This document shows, in pieces, positions 958 to 49,590 of a DNA stretch of 64,000 bases (its first letter is position 1; every line of letters starts with the position of its first letter). Under the pieces are notes generated by a model. The model saw nothing but the letters and a program-made list of their open reading frames with translations. It ran no database searches and had not been told where the DNA came from. The DNA is taken from IMG/VR virus record IMGVR_UViG_3300010352_001565, positions 115,055-179,054 of that record; one strand, 5' to 3'. Made by a program: the position numbers and the translations under genes. The stretch comes from a virus.

Positions 958-972
958 TAGTTAGGCCATATG
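958..972 (+). promoter_or_regulatory. late-type motif TAGTTA-N6-ATG (variant spacing) before gene 970
   Basis: gtcgTAGTTAggccatATG; same hexamer as 11 other pre-start sites. Confidence 0.35.
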
Positions 973-3087
973 AAACTACGATCAGTCGCACTGTTAACGG
1001 TTATCGTCCTTCTGGGTACGCGCGCGTTCTGCGGAATTCCGTTCGTCGTCCCACTAGACGAGGAGATCAATTACGAAACTAAGACCAACGTCGCCACCCT
1101 GGCCATCAAGGGCATCAACGAGTTTGGGCAATTACCCATCGACCAGGTAACGGTCGCCTCGAACGTCCTGAACCTCAGAATCGTCACGCTGGAGACCGCC
1201 ACCAAAGCGGACATCACCACGACTTCTAACGCCCTCGACTTCAAGATCATAACTGCATCCAACTTTGTTAGCGCGGCAGTCAATACCGCGTCTAACGAGC
1301 TCAAAGCGGCGATCTCAGGAATTCCAGGAGTGGACGGTTCAGCGTACGTCCCAACTGTAAGTGGCGGAGCTACCAACCTAACGATCTACTCTCAGACCCC
1401 GTCTGGGACTCGCCAGGTGCGCTACCTCGAGGCCAAAACAACAGTCTCTGAGGTCGTCGATGGCACTCAGGTTTTAAACATCGCAGGGGGTCCTGACGGG
1501 CTTATTGGTTCGTACCAGAAGCTGCACGGAATACCAATGCCGGAGCAACGAGCCAGTTCCGGCCCACACCACGTTGTAACGTGGTACTGGAGTGGACCGG
1601 CTCAGCCGTACGGAGTGTTTCCAACTCTTGAGACCGGAGATAAAATCATCAAGGTTGACCAGGTTGGACCGACCTCTGCCATCACTTGGTCTGTTGAAGG
1701 TGACGCAAGCGCCCACATGCAGTGGTCGAGTCTTACAGAGCTGATGAACCAAATGGGTGGCACGTTCGAATCTGGAACGTACGAAATGGCAGTAGAGCAA
1801 GACTACGCCACGTCATCGGATTTTACCGCCGCGTCTGCGTCGCTCTTAGGAACCATCAACGGTCTTCCTGCGGAAGGAACGATGCACAACCTGTCTGTGT
1901 ACAACGTCACGACAAACTTGGAGGTGAATCTAAGCCCTACAATTCCTTCGTCGTACTTTACGTCAATGGGAGTTCCAGTACCTGGAGCGATGGGTCAGTA
2001 CGTCAAAGTTGACGGATCAGACCCATACGCCTTTGAGCAAACATTCGGCGGAATCATGGATCACGCTTACAAGTTTGAAACCCAAGGAGGATCAGTGGCT
2101 CTTGTGCGCCACTCTGACAGCACTGTCATGCATACCTTCACCGTTTCTGAGTGGGAAGCGGCGTTCGCTCAATTCAGAGTGTTTCAGACTAACGCGACCG
2201 TGTCTTCTTCAGGCACCACCTCTACCGCATCTCCTGCAGGTCCAGATCCAAAGACTCGCACCCAGTTTTCTGGAAGTAACGTCGAGCTCGAGCTATATGC
2301 GAACGCTGAGAGCGACTGGACTGGAATCGACTGGATAGCTTCTGACAAGACGACAGTGACGGCCACGATCAAGTACGGAAACTCTACCGTCGTCGGCGAT
2401 CTTCAAAACTCGTTGTTCATCGGACCGAGAAACGGCGGTGACCTCAAGCTAGTCACCGGAGGATACGCAACTCCACGGTTCACCTTGAAGGACAGCGGCA
2501 AGATTGGCATTGGAACGGTTCTAAACCCAGACAGCTTGTTCCAACTTCCTGGATACAACAACGGAGTCTATGGCGCTCTGATGGTAGGAGCCGACAACTT
2601 CACTTGGGATGACGGCGCTGTGGCTTTCGGTATTTGGGCGGACAGCTCGCTTCCTCAGCAGGGTGGAGGATCGTCTCCGCGATTCGCATTTATTCCGAAG
2701 GCTACCGATCACGGTGGCGCTGCAAAGCTGATCATCGGCTGGAATGCACCTTACGGAAGCGTGCTTGACTTTGGAGGCGATGTTTCGATCTACCGCTCGA
2801 CAGACGGCATGTTGGGCTTCTCCATCTACGATGGTTCGAGCGCGGCGTACAACGGCCTCACATTCAGCCAGAGTAAAGTGGCAGACATGACAGCGTGCAC
2901 GACTGTCAAACTTCCTGCGGTTGAGTCATCTGGACCAATCAAGAATGGAAACCTGTATTGGTACACTGCAGCGGACCTGGCTGGGTTAAACGCTGGAGCT
3001 GCCGCGAGTGCTCCTAACGGATCGCTTGGTACGACAGCTGATGGAAACCTCTACCTTCGCACTGGCGGCGCCTGGGTCCAGAAATAA
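970..3087 (+). CDS. large secreted protein (Sec signal peptide), possible fibre/adhesin-like
   Basis: N-terminus MKLRSVALLTVIVLLGTRAFCG (n-h-c signal peptide); N-terminal module after signal similar to gene 30110 (..PLDEEINYETKTNVA.. vs ..PLEEELQDQTRTNIA..). Confidence 0.6.
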   Translation: MKLRSVALLTVIVLLGTRAFCGIPFVVPLDEEINYETKTNVATLAIKGINEFGQLPIDQVTVASNVLNLRIVTLETATKADITTTSNALDFKIITASNFVSAAVNTASNELKAAISGIPGVDGSAYVPTVSGGATNLTIYSQTPSGTRQVRYLEAKTTVSEVVDGTQVLNIAGGPDGLIGSYQKLHGIPMPEQRASSGPHHVVTWYWSGPAQPYGVFPTLETGDKIIKVDQVGPTSAITWSVEGDASAHMQWSSLTELMNQMGGTFESGTYEMAVEQDYATSSDFTAASASLLGTINGLPAEGTMHNLSVYNVTTNLEVNLSPTIPSSYFTSMGVPVPGAMGQYVKVDGSDPYAFEQTFGGIMDHAYKFETQGGSVALVRHSDSTVMHTFTVSEWEAAFAQFRVFQTNATVSSSGTTSTASPAGPDPKTRTQFSGSNVELELYANAESDWTGIDWIASDKTTVTATIKYGNSTVVGDLQNSLFIGPRNGGDLKLVTGGYATPRFTLKDSGKIGIGTVLNPDSLFQLPGYNNGVYGALMVGADNFTWDDGAVAFGIWADSSLPQQGGGSSPRFAFIPKATDHGGAAKLIIGWNAPYGSVLDFGGDVSIYRSTDGMLGFSIYDGSSAAYNGLTFSQSKVADMTACTTVKLPAVESSGPIKNGNLYWYTAADLAGLNAGAAASAPNGSLGTTADGNLYLRTGGAWVQK

Positions 3088-3092
3088 CGAAC

Positions 3093-3968
3093 ATGAAGAC
3101 CATACTGTGCATCGATGGTGGTGGGATGAAGGGACTCATTCCCACCACGTTTCTCGCAAAGCTTGAAGACACGCAAGGAAAGCCATGCTACGAGATCTTT
3201 GACCTAGTTGCTGGCACATCTGTCGGAGGAATCGTTGCGGCGCTGATCGCGAGTGGAAACACCGCTGCGCAGGCGCTTCACTTTTTCGACAAGGACGGTA
3301 CAGACATCTTCAAAAAGAAGCAGTTCATGTCGCTGGACGGGATGTTCAGACCGCGCTACGGCGCCGACAAGATCGAGAAGTGCCTGAAAGCGCGGTTGGG
3401 TGACAACCTGATGAGCAGCGCGAAGATTCCGCTGCTTATCACATCGTTCGACCTGGCGGCGTATGACCCATTCTTCTTCAGGTCTTACGGAAGTGGAATG
3501 TACTACAAGATGTGGGAAGCTTGCCGCGCAACATCCGCAGCGCAGAGCTACTTCCCTGCTTTCAAGCTGACGAATAAAATTCTGTGGGATGGCGGAAGCG
3601 TTTGCAATAACCCGTCGCTAGTTGCGCTATCAGACGCCATCAGCATCTGGGGTAAGGGTGAGGGCTACCGCATCTTGTCGCTTGGGTGCGGCCAGACGTC
3701 AAGCAAGTTCGATCCTGCTTCGATGGCAAACGCTGGTGCCTTGAAAGTTGCGCTTGAAACGGTGTCGCTTATGATTGAAGCGAACGACGACCTCCCAACA
3801 ACTGTTCTCAGCCAGCTGATGGGGAGCAACTACATCCGCGTTCAACCAGAATGCACAGACTTCTCGCTCGATTCTGCCAGTAAAGAAGACATCGAGAAGC
3901 TCAAAGCTGCAGGGGAGGAATGCGCCCGTCTAAACACGGACGTCATTAAGCAGTTCTCAACGAAATAG
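3093..3968 (+). CDS. patatin-like phospholipase
   Basis: N-terminal DGGGMKG oxyanion motif, GTSVGG (GxSxG nucleophile elbow), downstream D in DGG; patatin family hallmarks. Confidence 0.7.
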   Translation: MKTILCIDGGGMKGLIPTTFLAKLEDTQGKPCYEIFDLVAGTSVGGIVAALIASGNTAAQALHFFDKDGTDIFKKKQFMSLDGMFRPRYGADKIEKCLKARLGDNLMSSAKIPLLITSFDLAAYDPFFFRSYGSGMYYKMWEACRATSAAQSYFPAFKLTNKILWDGGSVCNNPSLVALSDAISIWGKGEGYRILSLGCGQTSSKFDPASMANAGALKVALETVSLMIEANDDLPTTVLSQLMGSNYIRVQPECTDFSLDSASKEDIEKLKAAGEECARLNTDVIKQFSTK

Positions 3969-3986
3969 GATTAGGTTATTGGTCAA

Positions 3987-4015
3987 GCCCGAGGCAAAAC
4001 ACCTCGGGCTTTTTA
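3987..4015 (+). terminator. rho-independent terminator
   Basis: gcccgagg-caaaaca-cctcgggc followed by TTTTT, immediately before promoter P1. Confidence 0.6.
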
Positions 4016-4041
4016 GTCTCAAAAATAGTTGCAAATAAATG

Positions 4042-4069
4042 TTTACAAATTTTAGTTTCGTGATATAGT
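4042..4069 (+). promoter_or_regulatory. sigma70-like promoter P1 (TTTACA-N16-TGaTATAGT), ATG 6 nt downstream
   Basis: aaaaatagttgcaaataaatgTTTACAaattttagtttcgTGaTATAGTgccatcATG; conserved upstream 30-bp element present. Confidence 0.6.
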
Positions 4070-4075
4070 GCCATC

Positions 4076-5619: not shown

Positions 5620-5935
5620 AAAAGAAGGAAAGAACGTCATCGTCACCGGGCTAGGAAACGGTGACAAGTTCAACATCTCTGAAACTCCGATGCGCGGCAA
5701 GCGCATCTACCGGGTGTGGACCATCTTGGATCGGACCAAGCTCTTGACGCGCTACTGCGACGGCAAACCGTACACCGTTGGAATCAAGGACGCGAATCCG
5801 ATTCACTGGACGAACGCATTCATTGAGGACTGCGTTCACGACTGGACGGTGCGTGGCGACCTTTTCATCTTTCACGCCCACTCGTCATACAAAGGACAAC
5901 AAATCGACCTGCTTATTCAGCTCTACGAGGAATGA
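5609..5935 (+). CDS. hypothetical protein (internal ATG of ORF 5366..5935)
   Basis: Upstream part of ORF 5366 overlaps gene 5305 in another frame; first non-overlapping ATG at 5609 (MVFEKEG..). Confidence 0.4.
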   Translation: MVFEKEGKNVIVTGLGNGDKFNISETPMRGKRIYRVWTILDRTKLLTRYCDGKPYTVGIKDANPIHWTNAFIEDCVHDWTVRGDLFIFHAHSSYKGQQIDLLIQLYEE

Positions 5936-6447
5936 AATACTTTACCGCAATTGCCGCAATGACCCAGGATCGCGTTATAGGCAACGGGGATGCGATACCA
6001 TGGAAGATCAAAGAAGAGTTGGCGTGGTTCAAACGGGTAACAATGGGCCATGCTCTGGTAATGGGCCGGAAGACCTACGAGTCCATCGGGAAACCTCTTC
6101 CAGGTCGCGACACACTCGTATTATCTCGCGCCGGGCGCTGCGGTTTACCGGAGACTCCGAATGGAGTCAAGGTCATCACGTGCCTCGAGTGCGTCAACCC
6201 GAATGACACCTGCAAGACCGTCTTCATCTGCGGAGGCGAGCAGATTTACCGGCAGGCTCTCCCGTATTGCCTCGATCTCTATTTGACCATCGTGCACCGT
6301 TCGTACGAAGGCGACAAATTTTTCCCGAAGTTCGAGCACCTTTTCAAGCGGGTTGAGACGGTAGGAAAGTTCGACGAGTTCACCATCTACCACTACAGAA
6401 ATCTCGCTCCCAGAAACCCACCACGGCTTCAAGGCACAGGTTCTTAA
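5932..6447 (+). CDS. folA: dihydrofolate reductase
   Basis: N-terminal IAAMxxxRVIGxxxxIPW and downstream GRKTYESIG (DHFR NADPH/folate motifs); ~170 aa; ATGA overlap with upstream gene. Confidence 0.8.
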   Translation: MKYFTAIAAMTQDRVIGNGDAIPWKIKEELAWFKRVTMGHALVMGRKTYESIGKPLPGRDTLVLSRAGRCGLPETPNGVKVITCLECVNPNDTCKTVFICGGEQIYRQALPYCLDLYLTIVHRSYEGDKFFPKFEHLFKRVETVGKFDEFTIYHYRNLAPRNPPRLQGTGS

Positions 6448-13271: not shown

Positions 13272-13672
13272 TGGGCAACAAGGTTGACAACCACGAAGGA
13301 AAGCCACCGGTCGTAGGAACCGGCATGCCCACTAGCCTATACCTTGAAGAGTTCGGCTCACAGGTGTGGGCAGCTTTTGGAGAACCTCCCTATCTTGTTG
13401 GATCCGCCCTATTTGGCAAGCAGTGGCGCGACGTTGACATTAGGCTCATCCTGGACGACAAGGAGTATGAACGCCTGGGTCTTGGAGATCCTGAGCTACC
13501 GCATCATAACGGGAAGTGGGTCTCGCTGTGCATGGCATACGCAGCTCTCGGAAAGCAGATGACTGGCCTTCCGATTGACTTCCAGATTCAACAGATGACG
13601 CACGCTAACAAGAAGTTCGCAGGCGGGCGTTCTGCCATCGGGTTTGTTTCCCTGAGGATAGTTAAGGAGTGA
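13265..13672 (+). CDS. hypothetical protein
   Basis: 135-aa ORF. Confidence 0.4.
   Translation: MVMGNKVDNHEGKPPVVGTGMPTSLYLEEFGSQVWAAFGEPPYLVGSALFGKQWRDVDIRLILDDKEYERLGLGDPELPHHNGKWVSLCMAYAALGKQMTGLPIDFQIQQMTHANKKFAGGRSAIGFVSLRIVKE
13659..13671 (+). promoter_or_regulatory. late-type motif TAGTTA-N4-GTG
   Basis: gaTAGTTAaggaGTG directly at start of 1410-aa gene. Confidence 0.5.
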
Positions 13673-20157: not shown

Positions 20158-20763
20158 GTGAATACTCATGCCATCTTACGCGAGAGGATCCTCATCAAGG
20201 CGGGAATCACCCCAAAACCAAATCCGGCGCTGCTGTACGAGAAGCTTGCCAAGTCTGAGTGGAGCGTCCAGTTTGAGCAGCTCATGCGCAATCGACTTGG
20301 TCCCTACGCGTGGAGCTCAAAGTTCGAGCAGCTCATGCGGAACCGGTTAATAATGGGAGCGTTCAGATACGGGCTTCTCGGCTATCACAAGAAACCGCAG
20401 TATGACCGAATCGCCAGCGCTTTGCGCCGTCTTGAAAAATACGCTGAATTTGGAAATCTAGAGCTTCTTGTCGACGTCGCGAATATGTGCCTGGTCGAGT
20501 TTGTTGAAGGAAAGCACCCGGATAGGCACTGGGACGTCGCATCGGCATTCAAAAACGATCTATTTTGTATAAAAAATTCGACTGGAATTGGCACGCCATG
20601 CATCAGAGAGGCTCTTGACTGCTACACAAGCACAAAGGATCTTGAGGCACTCGTATTGGCAGCCGACTGGTCCATGGTTGAATTTGTTGAAGAAAACCAT
20701 ACGAACAGCCATTGGGAGGCAGCCGATGACGGAGAGCACGCCACAGCGATAGTTAACGCGTGA
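20158..20763 (+). CDS. hypothetical protein with internal duplications (GTG start)
   Basis: Tandem FEQLMRNRL..FEQLMRNRL and two EFVE(G/E)xH..HW(D/E) segments. Confidence 0.45.
   Translation: MNTHAILRERILIKAGITPKPNPALLYEKLAKSEWSVQFEQLMRNRLGPYAWSSKFEQLMRNRLIMGAFRYGLLGYHKKPQYDRIASALRRLEKYAEFGNLELLVDVANMCLVEFVEGKHPDRHWDVASAFKNDLFCIKNSTGIGTPCIREALDCYTSTKDLEALVLAADWSMVEFVEENHTNSHWEAADDGEHATAIVNA
20272..20345 (+). repeat. tandem duplication (~24-bp core repeated at 51-bp period) inside CDS 20158
   Basis: ttYgagcagctcatgcgSaaYcgRYt occurs twice. Confidence 0.5.
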
Positions 20764-21101
20764 ACGCGCGAATGCTAATCGAATCTGCCATGCCTGCTCG
20801 CCGGCGCAAGAAGAAAAAGAGCGACGGAACTTCTCACCAGCCAACCGGTGAGACGTTTGTAGATCACGTCATCGAAAATCAGGAAATCCGCGTCGGTAGC
20901 ATCGTCCGCGTTACGCGCAAGACATCTCCTTCGTACGGAAAGACTGGCCAAGTGTCCTTGGTCTCTGACTACGACAGAGCGCTGGGTGGGCCATCTGCTA
21001 CAGTTAAGATGGGGATGGAACACGCGCTTGGCCTGATTCCTGTACGCTTTGCGCTGTCTGATTTAACCGTCATTGACCAATCGAATGAACAACCTGGTTG
21101 A
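20760..21101 (+). CDS. hypothetical protein
   Basis: 113-aa ORF with RRRKKKK N-terminal basic patch. Confidence 0.4.
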   Translation: MNARMLIESAMPARRRKKKKSDGTSHQPTGETFVDHVIENQEIRVGSIVRVTRKTSPSYGKTGQVSLVSDYDRALGGPSATVKMGMEHALGLIPVRFALSDLTVIDQSNEQPG

Positions 21102-21389: not shown

Positions 21390-21402
21390 TAGTTAGGGTG
21401 TG
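21390..21402 (+). promoter_or_regulatory. late-type motif TAGTTA-N4-GTG
   Basis: cgTAGTTAgggtGTG at start of gene 21400. Confidence 0.45.
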
Positions 21403-21738: not shown

Positions 21739-21751
21739 TTGCAAAAAAGTG

Positions 21752-21779
21752 TTTACATTTATGCGTAGCATGATATAGT
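21752..21779 (+). promoter_or_regulatory. sigma70-like promoter P2 (TTTACA-N16-TGaTATAGT), ATG 6 nt downstream
   Basis: gaaaatagttgcaaaaaagtgTTTACAtttatgcgtagcaTGaTATAGTgctaccATG. Confidence 0.6.
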
Positions 21780-21785
21780 GCTACC

Positions 21786-28729: not shown

Positions 28730-28742
28730 TAGTTAGCGCGTG
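28730..28742 (+). promoter_or_regulatory. late-type motif TAGTTA-N4-GTG
   Basis: ggTAGTTAgcgcGTG. Confidence 0.5.
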
Positions 28743-29570: not shown

Positions 29571-29583
29571 TAGTTAGGGTATG
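29571..29583 (+). promoter_or_regulatory. late-type motif TAGTTA-N4-ATG
   Basis: gTAGTTAgggtATG. Confidence 0.5.
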
Positions 29584-30099: not shown

Positions 30100-30112
30100 T
30101 AGTTACGCTATG
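30100..30112 (+). promoter_or_regulatory. late-type motif TAGTTA-N4-ATG
   Basis: ggTAGTTAcgctATG. Confidence 0.5.
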
Positions 30113-36470: not shown

Positions 36471-36483
36471 TAGTTAGCGCATG
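36471..36483 (+). promoter_or_regulatory. late-type motif TAGTTA-N4-ATG
   Basis: gcTAGTTAgcgcATG. Confidence 0.5.
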
Positions 36484-39277: not shown

Positions 39278-39290
39278 TAGTTAAGCCATG
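39278..39290 (+). promoter_or_regulatory. late-type motif TAGTTA-N4-ATG
   Basis: ggTAGTTAagccATG. Confidence 0.5.
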
Positions 39291-39575: not shown

Positions 39576-39578
39576 TTT

Positions 39579-39870: not shown

Positions 39871-40260
39871 ATGATGACTGTATCAGAAACTGTGAAGGAA
39901 AAGCCAAAGACTCGCGTATTCCAATACGTTGGTCCTTGCGTTGAGTGTGCATTCAGAGGCGCTCCACCTGGGTACCAAATCCCAGACGACGTCGAACCTG
40001 AGAAAAACAAGCGGCTTGTGCTTCTTCGCGAAGAAAACGGGATCGCAACGTATGGCGTGTTGGACAAGCGCTTCAACCAAGAAGTGACCAACAAGCCGCA
40101 ATTCGCCACTCCGCGCTCGATCACTCCAGCCAGAGCTTCCAGAATGATCGATCTGCTTATCGAGGCGTGCGACAAGTCGATCCGCCATCTGCGCATATCC
40201 CCTCATTTCGTTTCTGCCAGGCCGACAACGGCATCATTCAGAAGGTACATTTCGGAGTAG
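39871..40260 (+). CDS. hypothetical protein
   Basis: 129-aa ORF. Confidence 0.45.
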   Translation: MMTVSETVKEKPKTRVFQYVGPCVECAFRGAPPGYQIPDDVEPEKNKRLVLLREENGIATYGVLDKRFNQEVTNKPQFATPRSITPARASRMIDLLIEACDKSIRHLRISPHFVSARPTTASFRRYISE

Positions 40261-40270
40261 TTAAAGCATG
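40258..40270 (+). promoter_or_regulatory. late-type motif TAGTTA-N4-ATG (TAG is stop of upstream gene)
   Basis: gagTAGTTAaagcATG. Confidence 0.5.
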
Positions 40271-40627
40271 AACAATAGGACGATTGCAAGACAGATCGTT
40301 GAGGAACTCGTTGACGGAGACGACAATTTCAAATATGGAGGGATCGTTGTCATCATTGACGGTGGAGAGCCTGCTAAACCCGAGATCAGGGAGTGCGACG
40401 CTTTCAAAGTTCCGGATGATGTCAACGTCGACCCGTACACCTGCGATGAGTTCGGGTGCGACGACACCGAAGGAATCATCAACTTCTGCCGCAGCTTGAG
40501 ATCAGGAGAATTGGGCCAACCGCTTGGAAAAGCAAAGGTTCAGTTTTTCGGGCTTGACGGTCGCGAAGAACCAGAGGTGCTGACGCCCGAGCACGCCGGT
40601 GCGACGTTGATCTACAACCAGGAGTAG
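40268..40627 (+). CDS. hypothetical acidic protein
   Basis: 119-aa ORF after late motif. Confidence 0.45.
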   Translation: MNNRTIARQIVEELVDGDDNFKYGGIVVIIDGGEPAKPEIRECDAFKVPDDVNVDPYTCDEFGCDDTEGIINFCRSLRSGELGQPLGKAKVQFFGLDGREEPEVLTPEHAGATLIYNQE

Positions 40628-40637
40628 TTAGCGCATG
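40625..40637 (+). promoter_or_regulatory. late-type motif TAGTTA-N4-ATG (TAG is stop of upstream gene)
   Basis: gagTAGTTAgcgcATG. Confidence 0.5.
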
Positions 40638-41019: not shown

Positions 41020-41053
41020 AAGGCGTGCTGCTACGAGGTGGCACGCCTTTTTA
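41020..41053 (+). terminator. rho-independent terminator
   Basis: ggcgtgc-tgctacgaggtg-gcacgcc then TTTTT; followed by promoter P7. Confidence 0.6.
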
Positions 41054-41078
41054 GTCTAAAAATAGTTGCAAATAAATG

Positions 41079-41106
41079 TTTACATTTTTCCGAAGAATGA
41101 TATAGT
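41079..41106 (+). promoter_or_regulatory. sigma70-like promoter P7 (TTTACA-N16-TGaTATAGT), ATG 8 nt downstream
   Basis: aaaaatagttgcaaataaatgTTTACAtttttccgaagaaTGaTATAGTgcttgtgtATG. Confidence 0.6.
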
Positions 41107-41114
41107 GCTTGTGT

Positions 41115-41996
41115 ATGCCAGATCAAAACAACACTGAACTCGTTACGACCGTCGGCGTCGAGATCGAGATGGAAAACACACGGAATGTCAACTCAGATGT
41201 CCGTTTCATCTCTGACAAGCTCTCCCGTGCCGGTCTCAACTGGGTCGTTAAAACAGACGCTTCTTGCGGCCGCTCTGGAGCGGGAGTTGAGCTAAACTCT
41301 CCCATTCTGCGCACCGACGCTGATCTCAATTCTGTGTCGAGAGTCTGCGAAATGATGGATGAACTTGGTTATAAGGTGACGAAGAAATGCGGGTTGCACG
41401 TCCATATCGACGTCCGCCGTCTCACTGAGGACGAGAGAAACCGCCTTATCCGCTTCTTTGTCCAATACCAAGACTGCTTCTTTGAGCTCGCTCCTGGACG
41501 CCGCGCGGTGCACTACTGCGCGCCGCTGACGGCAGACGTGCTTGCTAAGCTGCGGCAAAACCGCGGTTGGTCTGCGTGGTCTACCCGCTATTTCTGGATG
41601 AACGGGTGCGCTTACACGGAACACGGCACTGTTGAGTTCCGCCTGATGAGTGGCAGCCTCAACCCGAATCATGTGACTGGATGGGTCAACTTCTTGCTTT
41701 ATGTCTATGACAAGGTTGTGAACCACGGAGCTTTCGGAGACGCCACATTCTTCCATCCAGATGCTTCGACTGGACGCGACTGCTTTGACAAAATGCTGCA
41801 CGTCACTGGACTTGACAACCTCGAGGTTGAAGGTCGAGCTGAAGTTGCTCGCAGCTGGGTGACCGCTCGCTGGGACGACGCTCACTCAGATGTCCAGTCA
41901 ATTCGCGCCGAACGACGCCGCCGCCTCCAAGCTGCTTGGCGCGGTGAAGCCCCGTATGTGAAAATCGTATCGCCTAACACCACAATGGCTGACTAG
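41115..41996 (+). CDS. glutamine-synthetase-fold amidoligase (Amidoligase_2/GCS2-like), paralog A
   Basis: TVGVEIEM first strand, GLHVHIDV, VEFRLMSGSLN; same three blocks in genes 43378 and 56981; ORF track start 41109 is alternative upstream codon. Confidence 0.6.
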   Translation: MPDQNNTELVTTVGVEIEMENTRNVNSDVRFISDKLSRAGLNWVVKTDASCGRSGAGVELNSPILRTDADLNSVSRVCEMMDELGYKVTKKCGLHVHIDVRRLTEDERNRLIRFFVQYQDCFFELAPGRRAVHYCAPLTADVLAKLRQNRGWSAWSTRYFWMNGCAYTEHGTVEFRLMSGSLNPNHVTGWVNFLLYVYDKVVNHGAFGDATFFHPDASTGRDCFDKMLHVTGLDNLEVEGRAEVARSWVTARWDDAHSDVQSIRAERRRRLQAAWRGEAPYVKIVSPNTTMAD

Positions 41997-42822: not shown

Positions 42823-43381
42823 GAAGGATCCGAAGTGCGCCCCGATCGAAATGCGCCGAGATGTGGAGCACCTGGTTGAGATGATCTACACCAACCTGAA
42901 GCAGCCGTATGCATCAATCTGGATCTCCCAGGTGACCCTCCTGGCTCCTCGGTGCAACACAACTAAGCTGTGCAAGGCCATGACATTCTGGATCCTTAAC
43001 GAGCTTACTGGGATGGTCGATTCAATTCGCGCTAGACGCCTAAAAAGGACGATTGCGTTTTACTACAAAATCCATACATCCGAGGCGGCGCACTGCAAGG
43101 CGCTTGTTCATCGGAAAACAAAGAAAGCGGCTCTCCGGTCCAGGGGATACGCCCAGAAGTTCGCCGTTCAGGCCATGGCGTTTGCAATTAAAAACGGGTA
43201 CCGCTCATCAGCCCAGGCTCTTAGGGCGTGCATGCTGTCGCGAATCGCGGTCCGCTCAGGGTCTAAGAAGCACTATCAGCTCAGGCCACATCTTGCTCCT
43301 CACACAGATCCGTTCGGATGCTACACCCATGCCGCCGTAACACTTCTGGTGATGCTTAACCGCTTTGTAGTTAAGCAGTGA
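42812..43381 (+). CDS. hypothetical basic protein
   Basis: 189-aa ORF. Confidence 0.4.
   Translation: MDFKKDPKCAPIEMRRDVEHLVEMIYTNLKQPYASIWISQVTLLAPRCNTTKLCKAMTFWILNELTGMVDSIRARRLKRTIAFYYKIHTSEAAHCKALVHRKTKKAALRSRGYAQKFAVQAMAFAIKNGYRSSAQALRACMLSRIAVRSGSKKHYQLRPHLAPHTDPFGCYTHAAVTLLVMLNRFVVKQ
43368..43380 (+). promoter_or_regulatory. late-type motif TAGTTA-N4-GTG
   Basis: tgTAGTTAagcaGTG. Confidence 0.45.
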
Positions 43382-44373
43382 ACGCCAGACGCGAAATTTG
43401 CAATCTGTTTGAGGACGCTGATCTCAATCTTGGCAGCGTTGGAATTGAGATCGAGATGCTTGCCAGGAAGGACTTGGTTGCAAACCGAGAGCTTGAAGCA
43501 GTTGTCCGCCAGCTCGATTTCACGTACGGGTTCGACGATTCTGTCACTCCAATGGCAGGAAGCCTTGAGGAGCTTTACACAAACGTTGAAATCTCAATCG
43601 GTCCTGATAGGTGGGACTGGATCTCCAAGCGGTTGATGAAGATGCTGGCGTACCTCAAGCACGAGGACTACGTCGCGGTTTCTCGAAAGCACTCAAACAG
43701 CCCTGTCTCAATTTCAACTGAAACGGATCTCTACTCTGATGGCGCAAAGAAAATCAGGCTCGCAAGAGCAAGGGTCCCTCAAAATTTCTCCGCCGGAGTT
43801 CACATCCACTTCGACGCCAACAGCTGGTTTTCAGGAACAGAGCACGCAGCTCGGTTTGTCAAGGTGCTAAATCGCTGGATTGAAGATGTTCCGAGACACC
43901 TGCCAGTTCAGCGTTACGGAAACGACGGCGAGCGAGGCCACGAGTTCGCCAGGATCCAAGGTTATCACGAATTGAACGGGGACAACTGGGGATCAGGATA
44001 CATCAAGCCAGCGGAGTATTTCCACAGAATAGGAAAGAATGTTGACAGGTTCATGGCGCTCAACGTTAAACCAGCTCTGAAACGCGGCGACATTGAGTTC
44101 AGATTCATGCACGGAACTCTCAACTACGCAACAATCGCGGGTTGGTTTGAAACCCTGGCAGAGCTTATGACATACGCGCAGCGCGAGCATGGAGGGTTTT
44201 CGGACTTCGTAGCTTGGTCTGCAAAGAAAGCTCCTGAGACCAAGAAGTTCATCGAGAAATCGTACAAGCTGAGCAAGGCGTCAAAAGAGCCGATCAGAAT
44301 TTCCCCATCAAGAGCCGCTAAAAAGATCCTCAATCCGCGGGCGGCTGACGCGCCTGTGTCAAACCCGGCATAA
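43378..44373 (+). CDS. GS-fold amidoligase, paralog B
   Basis: SVGIEIEM, GVHIHFDAN, IEFRFMHGTLN. Confidence 0.6.
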   Translation: MNARREICNLFEDADLNLGSVGIEIEMLARKDLVANRELEAVVRQLDFTYGFDDSVTPMAGSLEELYTNVEISIGPDRWDWISKRLMKMLAYLKHEDYVAVSRKHSNSPVSISTETDLYSDGAKKIRLARARVPQNFSAGVHIHFDANSWFSGTEHAARFVKVLNRWIEDVPRHLPVQRYGNDGERGHEFARIQGYHELNGDNWGSGYIKPAEYFHRIGKNVDRFMALNVKPALKRGDIEFRFMHGTLNYATIAGWFETLAELMTYAQREHGGFSDFVAWSAKKAPETKKFIEKSYKLSKASKEPIRISPSRAAKKILNPRAADAPVSNPA

Positions 44374-46176: not shown

Positions 46177-47310
46177 ATGAGTAACGTATCACCGCAGCAA
46201 GTCGCCTCTGTAATGAGGCTCACGGACAACCAGCTCAAAGCCGAATATTGGATCGGCAATAAGACTGGCCACTTGTTCAGGATCATCCGTATCGAAGGAA
46301 ACGGTTCCGCCCGCGAGGTCACCTACTGCGCTCCCGGCCAGCAAGAGACCTATACGAAGCCTCTTGACAAGTTCGCCAAAATCTTCCACCAAGCTGATCG
46401 CGACGAGATCTACTCTATTCTCGCTCCGCTGATTCAGCCTGTCGGTGAGGATGAAGCTGTTGGTCTGCTTATTGAACCCGACCAACGCCACGACTTCGGC
46501 CGCATCATCCTCCACGAGGAAACCCGCTTAGCCATCTCCACCGGTCTGAAGCGCATTCAAAACCGCGACGCCATGGAGCAAGTTTGGGGTCTGAGCGCCA
46601 TTGAGCCTCTCGGCAACCGCTGCATCTTGAACGGCTGGGGATTGCCCGGCACCGGCAAGACGCTCGCCTGCTACTGCATCGCTCGCATGCTTGAGAAGAA
46701 AGTCTATCAGGTCGACTACTCTGCCATCATTTCAAAGCAGCTTGGTGACACTGCCAAGCACATTGTGGCTGCGTTCGCTGCTGCCAAAAAACACGACGCC
46801 ATCTTGCTTTTCGACGAAGCAGACTCTCTTGTGTCTCGCCGCATCGAGATAGCCATGAGCACGTCGTTCGCGACCAGCATCAACCAAAACCGCAACGTGT
46901 TCATGCAGGAGCTTGACCGCTATGACGGGATCGTTTACTTGACCACCAACATGTTCGAGAACTACGACCCAGCCATGCTGCGCCGCATTGCTCGTCACAT
47001 CCCGTTCAATCTGCCCAATGCAGAAATGCGCCGGCAACTCTTTGCATGGCACCTCCCTCGCGTCGAGCGCGTCCGCATTAGCGATTGGACGAACATCTGC
47101 GCTTCGACAGAGGGCTTCTCTGGCGGCGACATCAAGAATGTTGTCATGAATTCGATCGACCGCGTCAGCATGAGCGAGGACCCGGAAACGTGGTATCTGA
47201 CTGAGGACGCTGTTCTCACTGAGGTTGGACTCATCAAGAGCTCCAAGGAACGCCACGCCCGGAACAACGGCCGCAATGACGAAGCCATCGCCGCAGCCAC
47301 CTTGAAATAA
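46177..47310 (+). CDS. AAA+ ATPase
   Basis: Walker A GLPGTGKT, Walker B ILLFDEADSL, sensor-1 TTN, arginine finger region MLRRI. Confidence 0.7.
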   Translation: MSNVSPQQVASVMRLTDNQLKAEYWIGNKTGHLFRIIRIEGNGSAREVTYCAPGQQETYTKPLDKFAKIFHQADRDEIYSILAPLIQPVGEDEAVGLLIEPDQRHDFGRIILHEETRLAISTGLKRIQNRDAMEQVWGLSAIEPLGNRCILNGWGLPGTGKTLACYCIARMLEKKVYQVDYSAIISKQLGDTAKHIVAAFAAAKKHDAILLFDEADSLVSRRIEIAMSTSFATSINQNRNVFMQELDRYDGIVYLTTNMFENYDPAMLRRIARHIPFNLPNAEMRRQLFAWHLPRVERVRISDWTNICASTEGFSGGDIKNVVMNSIDRVSMSEDPETWYLTEDAVLTEVGLIKSSKERHARNNGRNDEAIAAATLK

Positions 47311-47645
47311 TGCGAGTCGTCCAAACAGTTTCTCACTACGACGGTCGCGTCAGAAAGCGCGACAAGTGGACCTGGGCCGTCCGTCTCGACGGAACGGCCC
47401 AGGAGCTTAAAACCGTCCAGTATGTGGTCTATGAGCTGCACGAGTCCTACCGCGACCCGATTCAGATCGTGGACGACCCGCGGAACAACTTTAGGCTCTT
47501 CGGGGCATCCTACGGCTCATTTACGATTGGAGTTGAGATCTACTTCAAGCACGGGACTCCCGGCATGTCTGGGAAGAAACTGAAAGCGAAGATAAAGCTC
47601 CGCCTGTTTTACCCGACGGGGCTTTATCACCGAATTGAAGACTAG
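47310..47645 (+). CDS. hypothetical protein
   Basis: 111-aa ORF, ATGA overlap. Confidence 0.4.
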   Translation: MRVVQTVSHYDGRVRKRDKWTWAVRLDGTAQELKTVQYVVYELHESYRDPIQIVDDPRNNFRLFGASYGSFTIGVEIYFKHGTPGMSGKKLKAKIKLRLFYPTGLYHRIED

Positions 47646-48526
47646 TCCGCCATGATGGCCTGGACTTTAACCTTTCCAGTCGAGGCCTCTGATTCTCCGT
47701 AGTAGAAACGGAGCCACACCGCGCCGGTCGGTTTAGGAGGACCGCCGCGCTCGATGTGCCAGCCTTCAGAACCATCCGCAAACTCATCCTTGTAACCCGG
47801 CGTCTTAATGTGAAGCTGGGTGTCTTTGTAAATCACGCCAGAGTTGCTCAACCTCAACCTCTCGATCGGGAAGATCCATTCGTTGTGGGTGTGGCCTGTG
47901 CACACAATGTCGGCGTCAGGCAGGTACACCGACATGCGGTTTGTTTGGATCGTTCCTTTGGTAACCGGAGCGTCGCCTCCGTAGCCATGGTGGTAGTACA
48001 GTCGCTTGCTGAGCCGCTGCGTGCCGTGCACGGTAAACATGAACCGCATCCATCCAGAGAATCCTCCGATATAGATCGGGTTGTCGACAGGACGCATTGT
48101 GTTTAGGATCTGAACGAACCTCTCTGTCAGGTTTGTCTGATGATGCTTGAGAATGCTTCCCTCGTGGTTTCCTGGGGCAACAAGAGCAAAATTCTTAGCG
48201 TACGGTTTGTAAAAATCGGCGTTGTAGTTGACGAGCCTGTCGAGGTAGTTCGCTCCTCGAAGCTCGGGACGCATTTGACTTTCGTCAGCGCGCTTATCCC
48301 ATTTTCCTTGCATCGCACAGAAAAGATCCCCGTACTTCACGATCAGCGCGTCGCGCTTAAGCGCCTCATCGAGATGTTTCTTTTCAAGAGCATGATCGCA
48401 ATGAATGTTGTCGTGGTGTTCGTCAGATGAAAGTAAGACCCACTGTTCCCATCCCAATTTAACGTCATCGATGTACACTGACAATACATTCCGGGACTCC
48501 GACCTTAGCTGAATGGAGTTTTTCAT
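47642..48526 (-). CDS. calcineurin-like metallophosphoesterase
   Basis: SSDEHHDN, APGNHEG and GHTHNEWIF blocks (GDxHG / GNHE / GHxH metallophosphatase motifs); convergent with gene 47310. Confidence 0.65.
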   Translation of the reverse strand: MKNSIQLRSESRNVLSVYIDDVKLGWEQWVLLSSDEHHDNIHCDHALEKKHLDEALKRDALIVKYGDLFCAMQGKWDKRADESQMRPELRGANYLDRLVNYNADFYKPYAKNFALVAPGNHEGSILKHHQTNLTERFVQILNTMRPVDNPIYIGGFSGWMRFMFTVHGTQRLSKRLYYHHGYGGDAPVTKGTIQTNRMSVYLPDADIVCTGHTHNEWIFPIERLRLSNSGVIYKDTQLHIKTPGYKDEFADGSEGWHIERGGPPKPTGAVWLRFYYGESEASTGKVKVQAIMAD

Positions 48527-48593
48527 TAGGCGTTACGGTTCGTATTAACTACGCGTCTTTTTCTATTCGCTGAAAATAAACGAATTAAGGGGG

Positions 48594-48622
48594 TTTACAA
48601 GGTTTTGTTAACGTGCTACAGT
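48594..48622 (+). promoter_or_regulatory. sigma70-like promoter P14 (TTTACA-N17-TACAGT), uncertain
   Basis: gggTTTACAaggttttgttaacgtgcTACAGTATG; ATG abuts -10; divergent from minus-strand gene 47642..48526. Confidence 0.3.
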
Positions 48623-48946
48623 ATGAGGGTGGGCAAACAACTTAAACACCAAGTTGAAAGGAAACATATGAACATGACTGATCAAATAATCGCGGGTAAA
48701 CCGGCGGATGAAAAACTTCCTCCGCAGGCAAGGGAGATCGTAAAAGCAGTACGGGCGACGCACGGTGTTACGCTTGACCGGCTAGCCACCAAGTTGGATG
48801 GAAAGCTGAAGACTAAACAGCCTGTCAAGCGTATCATTTCGTTTTACATGCCCAGGCTGAAAAAAGGCGGATACTTGAAAGTCGCACACGCCAAGAAACA
48901 AGAGCCTCGCTCGAAGAAAATTCACGCTTCAGCGAAAGCAGCGTAG
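48623..48946 (+). CDS. small basic protein
   Basis: ATG within ORF 48605..48946; lysine-rich C-terminus. Confidence 0.4.
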   Translation: MRVGKQLKHQVERKHMNMTDQIIAGKPADEKLPPQAREIVKAVRATHGVTLDRLATKLDGKLKTKQPVKRIISFYMPRLKKGGYLKVAHAKKQEPRSKKIHASAKAA

Positions 48947-48956
48947 GTGTGGGGTG

Positions 48957-48986
48957 GGCCAGGGAGTTCGTCTCCCTGGCCTTTAT
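48957..48986 (+). terminator. rho-independent terminator
   Basis: ggccagggag-ttcg-ctccctggcc then TTTAT. Confidence 0.55.
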
Positions 48987-49157
48987 AGTCTACAAAACCA
49001 AATATGAAAAATCAGTTTACAAACAATCCGCGTGAACACAACAACGAAAACAACAATCCTGGTCGAACGCCCAGCATGGCTTGTCAACCTGCTGAAACTT
49101 CGAAAGACTCACCGATACAAACGGAAGATGCCTCGCAAGATCAAAGGTAGATAGTCT

Positions 49158-49580
49158 GTGAATGCGCGCACCATCATCGAGAATCTTGACATATTCGGAC
49201 GGACATTTGCCAGCGCTCCGCGGCACCGGACGCAAGCCGCTGTCGACCCGAACGACGCAAGGATGATGAGGCGCCTGACACCGGCCTCGACCGGAGCTCC
49301 GTACGGGCGCCGCCAACGGACCAGTGAGCCTCAGGCCGCTGGTTCGGCGGTGTGCTCAGAGTGCGGCGTCAGAACCGAGAAGATCGCATTCCGCAAGGAT
49401 GCTAAAAACTGGATCTGCAATCAGTGCTACAGCCCGATCTCCGAGTCGATATTCACCGACAACGAGTTTGTGAGATCCACCATTGCGGCTGGGTACAACC
49501 GTAAACCAGCCCCATTCAAATCCGAACCTCAGACAATTTCCGACTTTCAGGCAAAGCTCGCCGCTCTTAAAGGTGCGTAG
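49158..49580 (+). CDS. zinc-ribbon protein
   Basis: CSECG..(19 aa)..CNQC. Confidence 0.4.
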   Translation: MNARTIIENLDIFGRTFASAPRHRTQAAVDPNDARMMRRLTPASTGAPYGRRQRTSEPQAAGSAVCSECGVRTEKIAFRKDAKNWICNQCYSPISESIFTDNEFVRSTIAAGYNRKPAPFKSEPQTISDFQAKLAALKGA

Positions 49581-49590
49581 TTAGGGGGTG
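49578..49590 (+). promoter_or_regulatory. late-type motif TAGTTA-N4-GTG (TAG is stop of upstream gene)
   Basis: gcgTAGTTAgggGGTG. Confidence 0.5.

What the first reader, a model, noticed from the sequence alone, without database searches (positions are those of the whole stretch)
958..49590. Conserved TAGTTA-N4-ATG/GTG element at 12 late-looking gene starts (gp55-type late promoter analogue?)
The hexamer TAGTTA, usually preceded by G/GG, sits exactly 4 nt before the start codon at 13669, 21400, 28740, 29581, 30110, 36481, 39288, 40268, 40635, 43378 and 49588. At 970 the spacing is 6 nt. These are nearly all structural or virion-type genes: the Ig-repeat protein, the FN3 protein, the secreted fibre-like proteins and the giant paralogs. 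There is no conserved -35. In several cases the TAG of the hexamer is the stop codon of the upstream gene (40258, 40625, 49578), so the element is embedded in tight gene junctions. The fixed spacing argues for a -10-only late promoter recognised by a phage sigma or RNAP, as with T4 gp55 and TATAAATA. That would again give leaderless transcripts starting at the A/G of the start codon. Alternatively it is a translation re-initiation signal. Five of the twelve genes start with GTG.
Basis: seen in the sequence. Interest (0 to 1): 0.75.

Follow-up and report, generated by a model that had tools for sequence, protein, structure and literature searches.

The report
Start-codon-adjacent TAGTTA promoter-like box
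An uncultured giant phage and its distant relatives place the exact six bases TAGTTA four bases before the start codon of a subset of genes, most likely as a second, phage-specific promoter type that makes messenger RNAs beginning right at the start codon.

Summary
No other hexamer behaves this way. The window belongs to a ~222-kb, T4-like, uncultured jumbo phage. The same TAGTTA-N4-ATG/GTG element recurs in five relatives whose AAA ATPase is only 44-52% identical, giving 24 N4 sites in all.

These genomes use no Shine-Dalgarno sequences. Their sigma-70-type promoters (GTTTACA-N16/17-TATAGT-N6-ATG) are already leaderless.

I read TAGTTA as a second, -35-less promoter class that places the transcript 5' end at, or a few nt before, the start codon (confidence about 0.6). 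Four results support this:
- It occurs at first genes in divergent intergenic regions, sometimes as outward-facing pairs and at 6-19 nt spacing.
- Its start regions are GC-rich and no more accessible than random sequence, like the leaderless class and unlike ordinary internal genes.
- GTG starts are enriched.
- Nothing upstream is conserved.

No phage sigma or RNA polymerase was found in the 81 kb examined. The "late/structural" label is not established. An RNA-level translation or processing signal remains possible.

The parts
958..972 (+). TAGTTA-N6-ATG before the 705-aa gene 970..3087. This is the only plus-strand copy not at N4. The base at N4+1 is A, preceded by C.
13659..13671 (+). TAGTTA-N4-GTG before the 1410-aa gene, which carries the phrog_20946 domain. 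The upstream gene ends in the GTGA overlap.
20750..20762 (+). TAGTTA-N4-GTG before the 113-aa gene 20760..21101. The upstream gene ends in the GTGA overlap.
21390..21402 (+). TAGTTA-N4-GTG before the 112-aa gene.
28730..28742 (+). TAGTTA-N4-GTG before the 276-aa fn3-domain gene.
29571..29583 (+). TAGTTA-N4-ATG before the 169-aa gene. The upstream gene's TAG stop abuts the motif.
30100..30112 (+). TAGTTA-N4-ATG before the 571-aa gene of unknown family.
36471..36483 (+). TAGTTA-N4-ATG before the 930-aa Ig-repeat gene (tail / Hoc-like PHROG hits).
39278..39290 (+). TAGTTA-N4-ATG before the 95-aa gene, which has a lipoprotein-type signal (..LSAC).
40258..40270 (+). TAGTTA-N4-ATG before the 119-aa gene. 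The motif's TAG is the stop codon of gene 39871..40260.
40625..40637 (+). TAGTTA-N4-ATG before the 118-aa gene. The motif's TAG is the stop codon of gene 40268..40627.
43368..43380 (+). TAGTTA-N4-GTG before the 331-aa amidoligase-like gene. The orthologous junction in relative L007 (38% aa identity) keeps GTAGTTA-N4-GTGA.
49578..49590 (+). TAGTTA-N4-GTG before the 618-aa paralogue of the 1410-aa gene. The motif's TAG is the stop codon of gene 49158..49580.
49148..49160 (+). TAGATA-N4-GTG before the 140-aa gene 49158..49580. This is the only one-mismatch variant at N4 before a gene start, and its function is less certain.
48524..48551 (-). Minus-strand TAGTTA (48551..48546) 19 nt before the ATG (48526) of the isolated minus-strand gene 47642..48526. 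That gene needs its own promoter.
61751..61769 (+). TACTTA-N10-ATG before the baseplate-wedge (T4 gp6-like) gene starting at 61767. This is a degenerate or lost counterpart: the orthologue in relative L051 (55% identity) has exact TAGTTA-N4-ATG.

Best explanation
TAGTTA is the core of a second promoter class of this jumbo-phage clade. The fuller consensus is G-TAGTTA-R-S-G-Y followed by ATG or GTG.

The first class is an ordinary sigma-70-type promoter, GTTTACA-N16/17-(TG)n-TATAGT. It sits 6-8 nt before an ATG, so host RNA polymerase makes leaderless mRNAs.

The second class has no -35 element. Its six invariant bases lie at -10 to -5 relative to the first base of the start codon. I infer that it is read by a phage-specified transcription apparatus. 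That could be a gp55-like sigma on host core enzyme, which is plausible because the phage has T4-like baseplate and neck genes, or a phage RNA polymerase.

Transcription would start on the A or G of the start codon, or at most about 4 nt before it. The product is a leaderless or near-leaderless mRNA that 70S ribosomes can translate without any ribosome-binding site.

Because the promoter must abut the start codon, it is embedded in the last codons, the stop codon or the short spacer of the upstream gene.

Shown here: the motif, its spacing, its clade-wide conservation, its use at unit-first genes, the lack of Shine-Dalgarno sequences, and the closed, GC-rich start regions.

Inferred, not shown: that it acts on DNA as a promoter, the transcript 5' end, the enzyme that reads it, and its timing (middle or late).
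For: (1) Specificity. In the window, 12 of 13 plus-strand copies are N4 before a start codon (P = 1.7e-18), and no other hexamer comes close.

(2) Deep conservation. The same element is found in relatives whose AAA ATPase is 44-52% identical. In L005, L006, L007, L043 and L051, 11 of 18 copies are N4-RTG at gene starts (P = 1.3e-13). In L043 this is 3 of 3, and in L051 the single copy. An orthologous gene pair at 38% identity keeps GTAGTTA-N4-GTGA. Two further ATPase relatives, L045/L046 and L047, do not use it, so it is a clade trait rather than a compositional artefact.

(3) It occupies the place of a promoter.
- In L005 a 48-nt divergent intergenic region holds nothing recognisable except two outward-facing TAGTTAs, N4 and N14.
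- L006 2561-2642 has another outward-facing pair, N6 and N10.
- In the L007 divergent region one gene has the sigma-70-type promoter and the other has TAGTTA at N7.
- The window's isolated minus-strand gene has TAGTTA at N19.

(4) The genome already works leaderlessly. Eleven sigma-70-type promoters in the window, and more in relatives, end 6-8 nt before ATG. Shine-Dalgarno-like 4-mers are at background frequency: 6/49 and 3/12 against 16%.

(5) TAGTTA start regions resemble the leaderless class, not internally translated genes.
- GC of -4..-1 is 3.08/4 for TAGTTA genes, 2.36/4 for the sigma-70 class and 1.55/4 for other genes (P = 4e-5).
- Predicted unpaired probability of -15..+6 in the window is 0.43 (TAGTTA) and 0.43 (sigma-70 class), against 0.54 (other genes) and 0.46 (random positions).
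- This was replicated in the relatives: 0.38 and 0.41 against 0.49 and 0.43 (P = 0.02 and 0.005).

(6) GTG starts are enriched: 13/24 against 7/52 (P = 5e-4). This fits an initiating purine that may be A or G.

(7) Nothing is conserved from -50 to -12.

(8) Precedents.
- Short, near-invariant late promoters at fixed distance from the start site exist in jumbo phages: AR9 AACA-N6-TA/G and phiKZ TATG (PMC5312081).
- Thermus phage phiYS40 makes most middle/late mRNAs leaderless (PMC3594737).
- A TA-rich signal about 10-12 nt before the start codon is the accepted signature of leaderless genes (PMC3160421).
- Leaderless mRNAs beginning with GUG occur in Deinococcus (PMC4007540 abstract).
- T4-like baseplate-wedge and gp13-like genes in the clade make a gp55-type factor plausible.
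Against: There are no transcript data.

No sigma factor or RNA polymerase gene was found by Pfam or PHROGs in the 81 kb of this genome or in the relatives' loci. About 140 kb of the genome could not be read.

The element is 2 nt closer to the presumed start site than a canonical -10. It lacks the A(-11)/T(-7) pattern of sigma-70-family -10 elements.

In the window every N4 site is operon-internal and within about 25 nt of the upstream gene's end. The motif carries stop codons in two frames (TAG, TAR) and RTGA supplies the third. That also suits a termination-reinitiation signal.

The strict N4 spacing at internal sites contrasts with the N6-N9 tolerance of the sigma-70 class.

The 5'-terminal 12 nt of the presumed leaderless mRNAs are not more open than in other genes (0.55 against 0.65).

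The pyrimidine at -1 is not significantly above background: 19/22 against 35/52 (P = 0.15).

The baseplate-wedge orthologue in the window lacks the exact motif.
Confidence: 0.6

Rival explanations
1. RNA-level translation signal. UAGUUA, 4 nt before the start codon, would act in the polycistronic mRNA. It could be a Shine-Dalgarno-independent ribosome-positioning element. Or it could be a termination-reinitiation module that stops ribosomes in every frame (UAG, UAR, RUGA) and restarts them at the adjacent AUG/GUG.
For: - All 12 N4 sites in the window are at tight junctions. In 3 the motif's TAG is the upstream stop, and in 3 the upstream gene ends in the GTGA overlap.
- The position -10..-5 is where a Shine-Dalgarno sequence would sit.
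- The genome has no Shine-Dalgarno sequences, so some other signal could be needed.
- Spacing is very strict (24 N4 sites).
- Invariance of six bases would suit base pairing.
Against: - The element also occurs at first genes of divergent units where no upstream ORF exists, at spacings of 6-19 nt, and as outward-facing pairs in 48- and 82-nt intergenic regions with no other promoter candidate.
- About 50 other internal genes in the window are coupled without it.
- TAGTTA start regions are GC-rich and no more accessible than random sequence, whereas ordinary internal starts are clearly open.
- UAGUUA is not complementary to the conserved CCUCC 3' tail of 16S rRNA (established knowledge).
- Wobble variants that pairing would tolerate, such as TAGTTG and TGGTTA, are not used at starts.
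Confidence: 0.22
2. RNA-processing site. A phage or host endoribonuclease would recognise UAGUUA and cut within it or just after it. This would convert internal cistrons of long early transcripts into leaderless or near-leaderless mRNAs.
For: - The geometry is the same as in the promoter model.
- All window sites lie inside units driven by upstream sigma-70-type promoters, with no terminators in between.
- AG|UU resembles the loose RNase E preference (my recollection, not tested).
- The host evidently translates leaderless mRNAs.
Against: - Known sequence-specific endoribonucleases cut inside short motifs, not 4 nt downstream (established knowledge).
- The divergent-region sites would still need promoters that are not visible.
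- Monophosphorylated 5' ends are normally degradation-prone.
- No nuclease candidate is linked to the motif. The Rv2179c-like exoribonuclease in the window is a 3'-5' exonuclease family.
Confidence: 0.07
3. Operator for a regulatory protein. TAGTTA would be the binding site of a phage DNA- or RNA-binding regulator: a RegA-like translational repressor over the initiation region, or a transcription factor. It would not be a promoter core.
For: - A strictly invariant hexamer at a fixed position over the initiation region is what a protein site would look like.
- A related TAGTTG lies about 13 nt upstream of the -35 in six sigma-70-type cassettes.
Against: - This does not explain how unit-first genes with only TAGTTA upstream are transcribed.
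- Six bases with no dyad symmetry is short for a dimeric DNA binder.
- No candidate regulator was identified.
Confidence: 0.08
4. By-product of junction composition. Stop codons (TAG, TAA) cluster before starts, so TAGTTA would simply be a frequent junction word.
For: The motif contains stop codons, and junctions are tight throughout the genome.
Against: - No other hexamer, including other stop-containing ones, shows the pattern.
- In several sites the TAG is not in the upstream gene's frame.
- The exact hexamer and spacing are kept across relatives with 44-52% protein identity and GC from 0.50 to 0.60.
- The motif is absent from two further relatives.
Confidence: 0.01

Closest known systems
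T4-type late promoters (TATAAATA, read by gp55 with gp33 and the gp45 clamp)
   Same: Both are short, nearly invariant, AT-rich elements about 10 bp before the start site with no -35. Both are often buried in the end of the upstream gene and are superimposed on units also read from early promoters. The phage here has T4-like baseplate-wedge and gp13-like genes. Aligned as GGTAGTTA against TATAAATA, the two share nnTAnnTA.
   Different: The sequence differs. It lies at -10..-5 rather than -13..-6. T4 late mRNAs have leaders with Shine-Dalgarno sequences, whereas here the element is fixed 4 nt from the start codon. No gp55 or gp33 homologue was found in the part of the genome that could be read.
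Leaderless middle/late transcription of Thermus phages phiYS40 and P23-45
   Same: In both, phage mRNAs start at the initiation codon, the promoters lack a functional -35, and the host copes with leaderless translation (PMC3594737; PMC7403470).
   Different: The Thermus phage promoters are extended -10 promoters read by host sigma-A holoenzyme. TAGTTA is not a TANNNT -10 and is shifted by 2 nt. The host here is unknown.
Late promoters of jumbo-phage non-virion RNA polymerases (AR9 AACA-N6-TA/G; phiKZ TATG)
   Same: All are very short motifs at fixed distance from, or abutting, the start site in giant phages, and some genes carry both early and late promoters (PMC5312081).
   Different: Those phages are independent of host RNA polymerase. 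Their 5' UTRs are 26-491 nt, and phiKZ has no leaderless transcripts (PMC8244752). This phage has canonical sigma-70-type promoters, and no split beta/beta' genes were seen.
Bacterial leaderless-gene signal (TANNNT about 12 nt before the start codon)
   Same: The logic is the same: a promoter element at fixed distance from the start codon marks a leaderless gene (PMC3160421). The window's sigma-70-type class fits this exactly.
   Different: In TAGTTA the first T is at -10, not -12. The last base is A, not T. It is invariant rather than degenerate.
Termination-reinitiation and translational coupling signals (for example TURBS in caliciviruses, ATGA overlaps)
   Same: Stop and start codons lie within a few nucleotides of each other, with a short conserved upstream element.
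   Different: TURBS pairs with 18S rRNA and lies tens of nucleotides upstream. Here no rRNA complementarity is evident, and the element also occurs where there is no upstream ORF.

Membership tests
Sigma-70-family -10 element / bacterial leaderless promoter (TANNNT) | Hexamer TANNNT with A at -11 and T at -7, located -12..-7 from the start site. | tested here: not met
   If the start codon's first base is +1, TAGTTA spans -10..-5, and -11 is G in 15/22 sites. If it is forced into the -12..-7 register, -7 is A and +1 falls on the G of ATG.
Sigma-70-family -10 element / bacterial leaderless promoter (TANNNT) | -35 hexamer or extended -10 TG. | tested here: not met
   There is no information content from -50 to -12. 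By contrast the sigma-70-type class in the same window has GTTTACA and TGn.
T4-type gp55 late promoter | Consensus TATAAATA centred near -10. | tested here: not met
   The sequence is (G)GTAGTTA, sharing only nnTAnnTA, and it is shifted 1-3 nt downstream.
T4-type gp55 late promoter | No -35 and near-invariant core. | tested here: met
   one single-mismatch variant against 24 exact N4 sites, and nothing conserved upstream.
T4-type gp55 late promoter | gp55-like sigma with gp33 co-activator encoded by the phage. | tested here: inconclusive
   Pfam and PHROGs scans found none in the 81 kb read (precomputed Pfam).
T4-type gp55 late promoter | Drives late (virion) genes. | tested here: inconclusive
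   Consistent: Ig/Hoc-like and fn3 genes, and the baseplate wedge gene in L051. Not consistent: tubulin, cytidylyltransferase, lipase and amidoligase-like genes, and the window's baseplate-wedge gene lacks the motif.
Promoter in general | Primary transcript 5' end at a fixed distance downstream. | not testable with these tools
   No transcriptome is available. The phage occurs in only about five assemblies, and all are long DNA contigs.
Promoter in general | Present ahead of first genes of transcription units, including divergent ones. | tested here: met
   L005, L006 (two regions), L007 (two regions) and the window's minus-strand gene.
Shine-Dalgarno-type ribosome-binding site | Complementarity to the CCUCC 3' tail of 16S rRNA. 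| tested here: not met
   UAGUUA has no GGAGG-type core. SD-like 4-mers are at background frequency before all gene classes. The host's 16S rRNA is unknown.
Shine-Dalgarno-type ribosome-binding site | Lies in an accessible initiation region of the mRNA. | tested here: not met
   Unpaired probability is 0.43 (window) and 0.38 (relatives). That is no higher than random positions and lower than ordinary internal genes.
Jumbo-phage non-virion RNA polymerase promoter (phiKZ / AR9 type) | Phage-encoded split beta/beta'-like RNA polymerase subunits. | tested here: inconclusive
   None were detected in the readable 81 kb or in the relatives' loci. The large orphan proteins (1410, 705, 571 aa) have no PDB or Pfam match.

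The most novel reading that the evidence does not exclude
UAGUUA acts in the RNA, not the DNA, in one of two ways. It could be a Shine-Dalgarno-independent, strictly spaced ribosome-positioning or termination-reinitiation box, used by a phage clade whose host ignores Shine-Dalgarno sequences. Or it could be the recognition site of an endoribonuclease that cuts polycistronic early transcripts into leaderless mRNAs. That would give temporal control at the level of mRNA 5'-end generation rather than transcription initiation.
Probability: 0.25. Interest if true: 0.8.

Novelty: new variant of a known kind. Interest (0 to 1): 0.5.

Why it matters
If the reading is right, this clade of uncultured, T4-like jumbo phages runs its whole expression programme on leaderless mRNAs. 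Host-type promoters and a second, phage-specific promoter class both abut start codons, and there are no ribosome-binding sites at all.

This has three practical consequences:
- It gives a simple sequence rule for finding start codons and a temporal gene class in these genomes, which automatic gene callers get wrong at several sites.
- It predicts an undiscovered sigma-like factor or polymerase with TAGTTA specificity.
- It offers a compact 6-bp promoter to test.

It also shows how a promoter can be packed into the last codons of the preceding gene.

If instead the element works in RNA, it would be a new kind of bacterial translation or processing signal.

Tried and rejected
**Searches for close relatives**
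- INPHARED by DNA and by protein gave nothing useful.
- IMG/VR by promoter pattern, by the 1410-aa protein and by an ATPase profile gave nothing useful.
- JGI metagenome contigs by the 1410-aa protein gave nothing useful.
- Relatives were reached only through the AAA ATPase homologue search plus exact-protein contig look-ups.
- Two look-ups returned no DNA.

**Literature**
- A search for TAGTTA with promoter and phage found nothing relevant.
- PMC3018760 (P23-45) is not held.

**Test for TAGTTA ahead of non-coding genes**
- Such sites would prove a DNA-level role.
- tRNA genes of the relatives have no TAGTTA upstream.
- The window has no tRNA and no Rfam hit.

**tRNA-like fragment before L048 5188**
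- ARAGORN and Rfam do not call it as a tRNA.
- It has no exact match in GTDB genomes, so it gave no host clue.

**Other negative or inconclusive tests**
- Intrinsic terminators are at chance level and do not bracket the sites.
- Pyrimidine at -1 is not significant against the background of other genes.
- Openness of the 5' end of the presumed leaderless mRNAs showed no support.
- Depletion of the motif on the antisense strand would favour a DNA-level role. The numbers are too small: 1-2 observed against about 4 expected (my estimate).
- The TAGT shared between TATAGT-N6-ATG and TAGTTA-N4-ATG falls in the same register. Relatives' sigma-70-type -10 hexamers vary (TAGACT, CATAAT, TATGTT, TACAAT), so this may be coincidence.
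- GUAGUUAG is complementary to the CUAACUAC stretch of 16S helix 18 found in many bacteria (my recollection, not tested). I rejected this as mechanistically implausible, because that helix is at the mRNA entry side and is base-paired.
- No sigma or RNA polymerase was found in any readable sequence.

Full report
**1. The observation**

TAGTTA occurs 13 times on the plus strand and 3 times on the minus strand of the window. Dinucleotide shuffles give 9.4 for both strands together.

Every plus-strand copy lies just 5' of the first start codon of a long plus-strand ORF.
- Twelve are at exactly 4 nt. Their starts are 13669, 20760, 21400, 28740, 29581, 30110, 36481, 39288, 40268, 40635, 43378 and 49588.
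- One is at 6 nt (958 -> 970).
It missed 20750/20760.

ATG or GTG occurs at a given offset with probability 0.027, so 12 of 13 has P = 1.7e-18. Among all hexamers the runner-up scores 6 of 19. Only one single-mismatch copy is used the same way: TAGATA at 49148 before GTG 49158.

A logo of 22 N4 sites reads G(-11) TAGTTA R(-4) S G Y(-1) RTG A(+4). There is no information from -50 to -12.

**2. What the window is**

The window's AAA ATPase is encoded identically on several metagenomic contigs. A 100%-identical, slightly shorter form of it lies on a contig of 222,710 bp. There are no relatives in INPHARED or IMG/VR.

Gene content:
- DHFR, two or three thymidylate-synthase homologues, at least four amidoligases, methyltransferase and glycosyltransferases;
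- thioredoxin, patatin, a YEATS-like protein, and Ig and fn3 proteins;
- a T4 gp6-like baseplate-wedge gene at 61767.

A relative carries a T4 gp13-like gene, and another carries a tubulin gene. This is therefore an uncultured jumbo phage with T4-like structural genes.

**3. How genes are expressed in this genome**

There is no Shine-Dalgarno usage. SD-like 4-mers precede 6/49 ordinary genes, 3/12 TAGTTA genes and 0/11 class I genes, against 16% of random 17-nt windows.

Eleven genes in the window are preceded by a textbook sigma-70-type promoter. I call this class I. Its form is GTTTACA, then 16-17 nt, then TG-n-TATAGT, and it ends 6-8 nt before the ATG. These transcripts must be leaderless.

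The same architecture is found in the relatives. The AAA ATPase gene is one example.

Other genes follow one another at stop/start distances of 0-10 nt with A/T-rich spacers.

**4. Conservation of TAGTTA (class II)**

Relatives were reached through the AAA ATPase at 44-52% identity.
- L005: 1 N4 site, plus one at N14 on the other strand.
- L006: 3 N4 sites, plus sites at N6 and N10.
- L007: 3 N4 sites, plus one at N7. The N4 genes include tubulin and a cytidylyltransferase.
- L043: all 3 copies are N4.
- L051: its single copy in 11.5 kb is N4, before the baseplate-wedge orthologue.

Eleven N4 sites out of 18 copies gives P = 1.3e-13.

The same genome's flanks add one more N4 site and no stray copy in 17 kb.

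The window gene 43378 and its L007 orthologue (38% identity) both keep GTAGTTA-N4-GTGA. Three paralogues sharing a phrog_20946 domain all carry the motif.

The motif can also be lost. The window's baseplate-wedge gene has only TACTTA-N10-ATG, while its 55%-identical L051 orthologue has the exact element.

Two more distant ATPase-bearing contigs (L045/L046 and L047) do not use the motif.

**5. DNA-level promoter or RNA-level translation signal?**

Several results bear on this.

(a) Position at unit-first genes.
- In L005 a 48-nt divergent intergenic region contains two outward-facing TAGTTAs and nothing else promoter-like.
- In L006 an 82-nt divergent region has another outward pair, N6 and N10.
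- In L007 one gene of a divergent pair has class I and the other has TAGTTA.
- The window's isolated minus-strand gene 47642..48526 has TAGTTA 19 nt upstream.
- Each of these placements is individually unlikely by chance, roughly 0.5% by my estimate from motif frequency. They are where promoters must be.

(b) Sequence just before the start codon. The four bases are GC-rich in class II (3.08/4) and class I (2.36/4) but AT-rich in ordinary genes (1.55/4). Class II against ordinary genes gives P = 4e-5.

(c) Accessibility if read as part of a long mRNA.
- Ordinary internal starts are more accessible than random positions: 0.535 against 0.458 (P = 8e-4).
- Class II (0.431) and class I (0.434) are not.
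- The relatives replicate this: 0.379 and 0.408 against 0.488 for ordinary genes and 0.431 for random positions. Class II against ordinary genes gives P = 0.005.
- Class II genes therefore lack the signature of internal translation initiation and look like the leaderless class.

(d) GTG starts are 13/24 in class II against 7/52 elsewhere (P = 5e-4). This is expected if the constraint is an initiating purine. Leaderless GUG mRNAs are documented in Deinococcus (PMC4007540).

(e) Points favouring the RNA-level reading.
- All N4 sites in the window are at tight junctions.
- The motif provides stops in two frames and RTGA provides the third.
- N4 spacing is stricter than the N6-N9 tolerated by class I.

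(f) Tests that did not discriminate: pyrimidine at -1, 5'-terminal openness, terminators, and antisense depletion (numbers too small).

**6. Most likely mechanism**

TAGTTA is the core of a -35-less promoter read by a phage-specified sigma-like factor or polymerase. Transcription starts on the start codon or up to 4 nt before it, and the mRNA is translated as a leaderless message.

Because these promoters lie inside units that also have class I promoters, with no terminators between them, class II genes would be transcribed twice. This is as in T4 and AR9 (PMC5312081).

The closed, GC-rich, often GTG-initiated start regions suggest that these genes are poorly translated from read-through early RNA and efficiently only from the class II transcript. 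This last step is inference.

I put the confidence at 0.6. The rivals are:
- an RNA-level translation or re-initiation box (0.22);
- an RNA-processing site (0.07);
- a regulator's operator (0.08);
- a compositional by-product (0.01).

**7. Comparison with known systems**

The element works most like a T4 gp55 late promoter: short, invariant, no -35, and buried in upstream genes. In its output it resembles Thermus phage phiYS40, which makes leaderless middle/late mRNAs (PMC3594737). In brevity and fixed distance it resembles jumbo-phage non-virion polymerase promoters (PMC5312081).

It is not a member of any of these by sequence.
- It fails the TANNNT and -35 tests of sigma-70-type promoters.
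- It is not TATAAATA.
- phiKZ has no leaderless transcripts (PMC8244752).
- No gp55, gp33 or polymerase gene was found in the 81 kb that could be read.

Ig, fn3 and a baseplate-wedge gene carry the motif, but so do tubulin, cytidylyltransferase, lipase and amidoligase-like genes.

**8. Verdict**

The feature is real, highly non-random and clade-conserved. It is best read as a new variant of a known kind: a phage-specific promoter giving leaderless mRNAs.

Interest is moderate (0.5). It gives a clear, testable rule and predicts an unknown factor, but the principle has precedents. The RNA-level reading is not excluded (about 0.25) and would be considerably more novel.

Noticed in passing
window gene starts 4076, 18267, 21786, 25015, 28311, 39871, 41115, 46177, 51815, 56981, 58931: There are eleven near-consensus sigma-70-type promoters of the form GTTTACA-N16/17-TGnTATAGT. 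They end 6-8 nt before an ATG, so these genes are leaderless. The same class is present in all relatives of the motif clade.
   Followed up: yes
window 4000-4075, 21710-21785, 24940-25014, 41030-41114, 56905-56980, 58855-58930: Six of the sigma-70-type promoters are embedded in a longer repeated cassette. It consists of a hairpin plus T-run (terminator-like), then AAAATAGTTGCAAATAAATGTTTACA. The cassette contains TAGTTG, one mismatch from the motif, about 13 nt upstream of the -35. It resembles the promoter/stem-loop cassettes of T4-type phages.
   Followed up: partly
whole window: There are no Shine-Dalgarno sequences before any gene class (SD-like 4-mers at or below background). Ordinary internal genes instead have A/T-rich, structurally open start regions. 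The host is probably an organism that does not rely on Shine-Dalgarno pairing. The only host hint is that the closest cellular homologues of the ATPase are from Prosthecobacter (Verrucomicrobiota).
   Followed up: partly
window 13669-17901, 49588-51444; L048 5198-6529: Three paralogous orphan proteins (1410, 618 and 443 aa) share a domain matching phrog_20946 of unknown function. The first two are 55% identical over 307 residues. All three are preceded by TAGTTA-N4.
   Followed up: partly
window 41115-41996, 43378-44373, 52648-53697, 56113-56928, 56981-57961, 5932-6447, 54076-54891, 60203-61750: There is a dense set of amidoligase, thymidylate-synthase-like, DHFR, methyltransferase and glycosyltransferase genes, and a glutamine amidotransferase just beyond the window. 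This is the kind of set associated with thymidine hypermodification of phage DNA, which could matter for promoter recognition.
   Followed up: no
window 46177-47645 and the same position in L007, L043, L044: The AAA+ ATPase gene is followed by a small YEATS-like (pYEATS) protein gene, and the pair is conserved across the clade.
   Followed up: no
window 39288-39827: A 95-aa protein with a lipoprotein signal (..LSAC) is followed by an 82-aa protein with predicted membrane helices. This may be a spanin or holin-like lysis pair. The first gene carries the TAGTTA element.
   Followed up: no
L048 5150-5187 (about 3.9 kb upstream of the window start): A sequence resembling the T-arm, acceptor 3' strand and CCA of a tRNA (GCAGGTTCGATTCCTGCCGCGTTCGCCA) ends immediately before a TAGTTA-N4-ATG site. 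ARAGORN and Rfam do not call a tRNA, and there is no exact match in GTDB genomes.
   Followed up: yes
window 61767-64000 (runs off the end): This is a T4 gp6-like baseplate-wedge gene (phrog_219, E = 2e-31). It shows the phage has T4-type tail genes. Its start has TACTTA-N10-ATG, whereas the L051 orthologue has the exact TAGTTA-N4-ATG.
   Followed up: yes
L006 11732 and 11850; L007 11305: Three TAGTTA copies in relatives lie in long intergenic regions, 1-11 nt before short ORFs of 11-36 codons. They may drive small genes or non-coding RNAs.
   Followed up: partly
window 49588 (L001 versus L002 gene calls), L043 3379, L006 1424: Automatic gene callers placed several starts downstream of the TAGTTA-N4-GTG start. 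Examples are 506 aa instead of 618 aa, 3400 instead of 3379, and 1680 instead of 1424. The motif could be used to correct start-codon annotation in this clade.
   Followed up: partly
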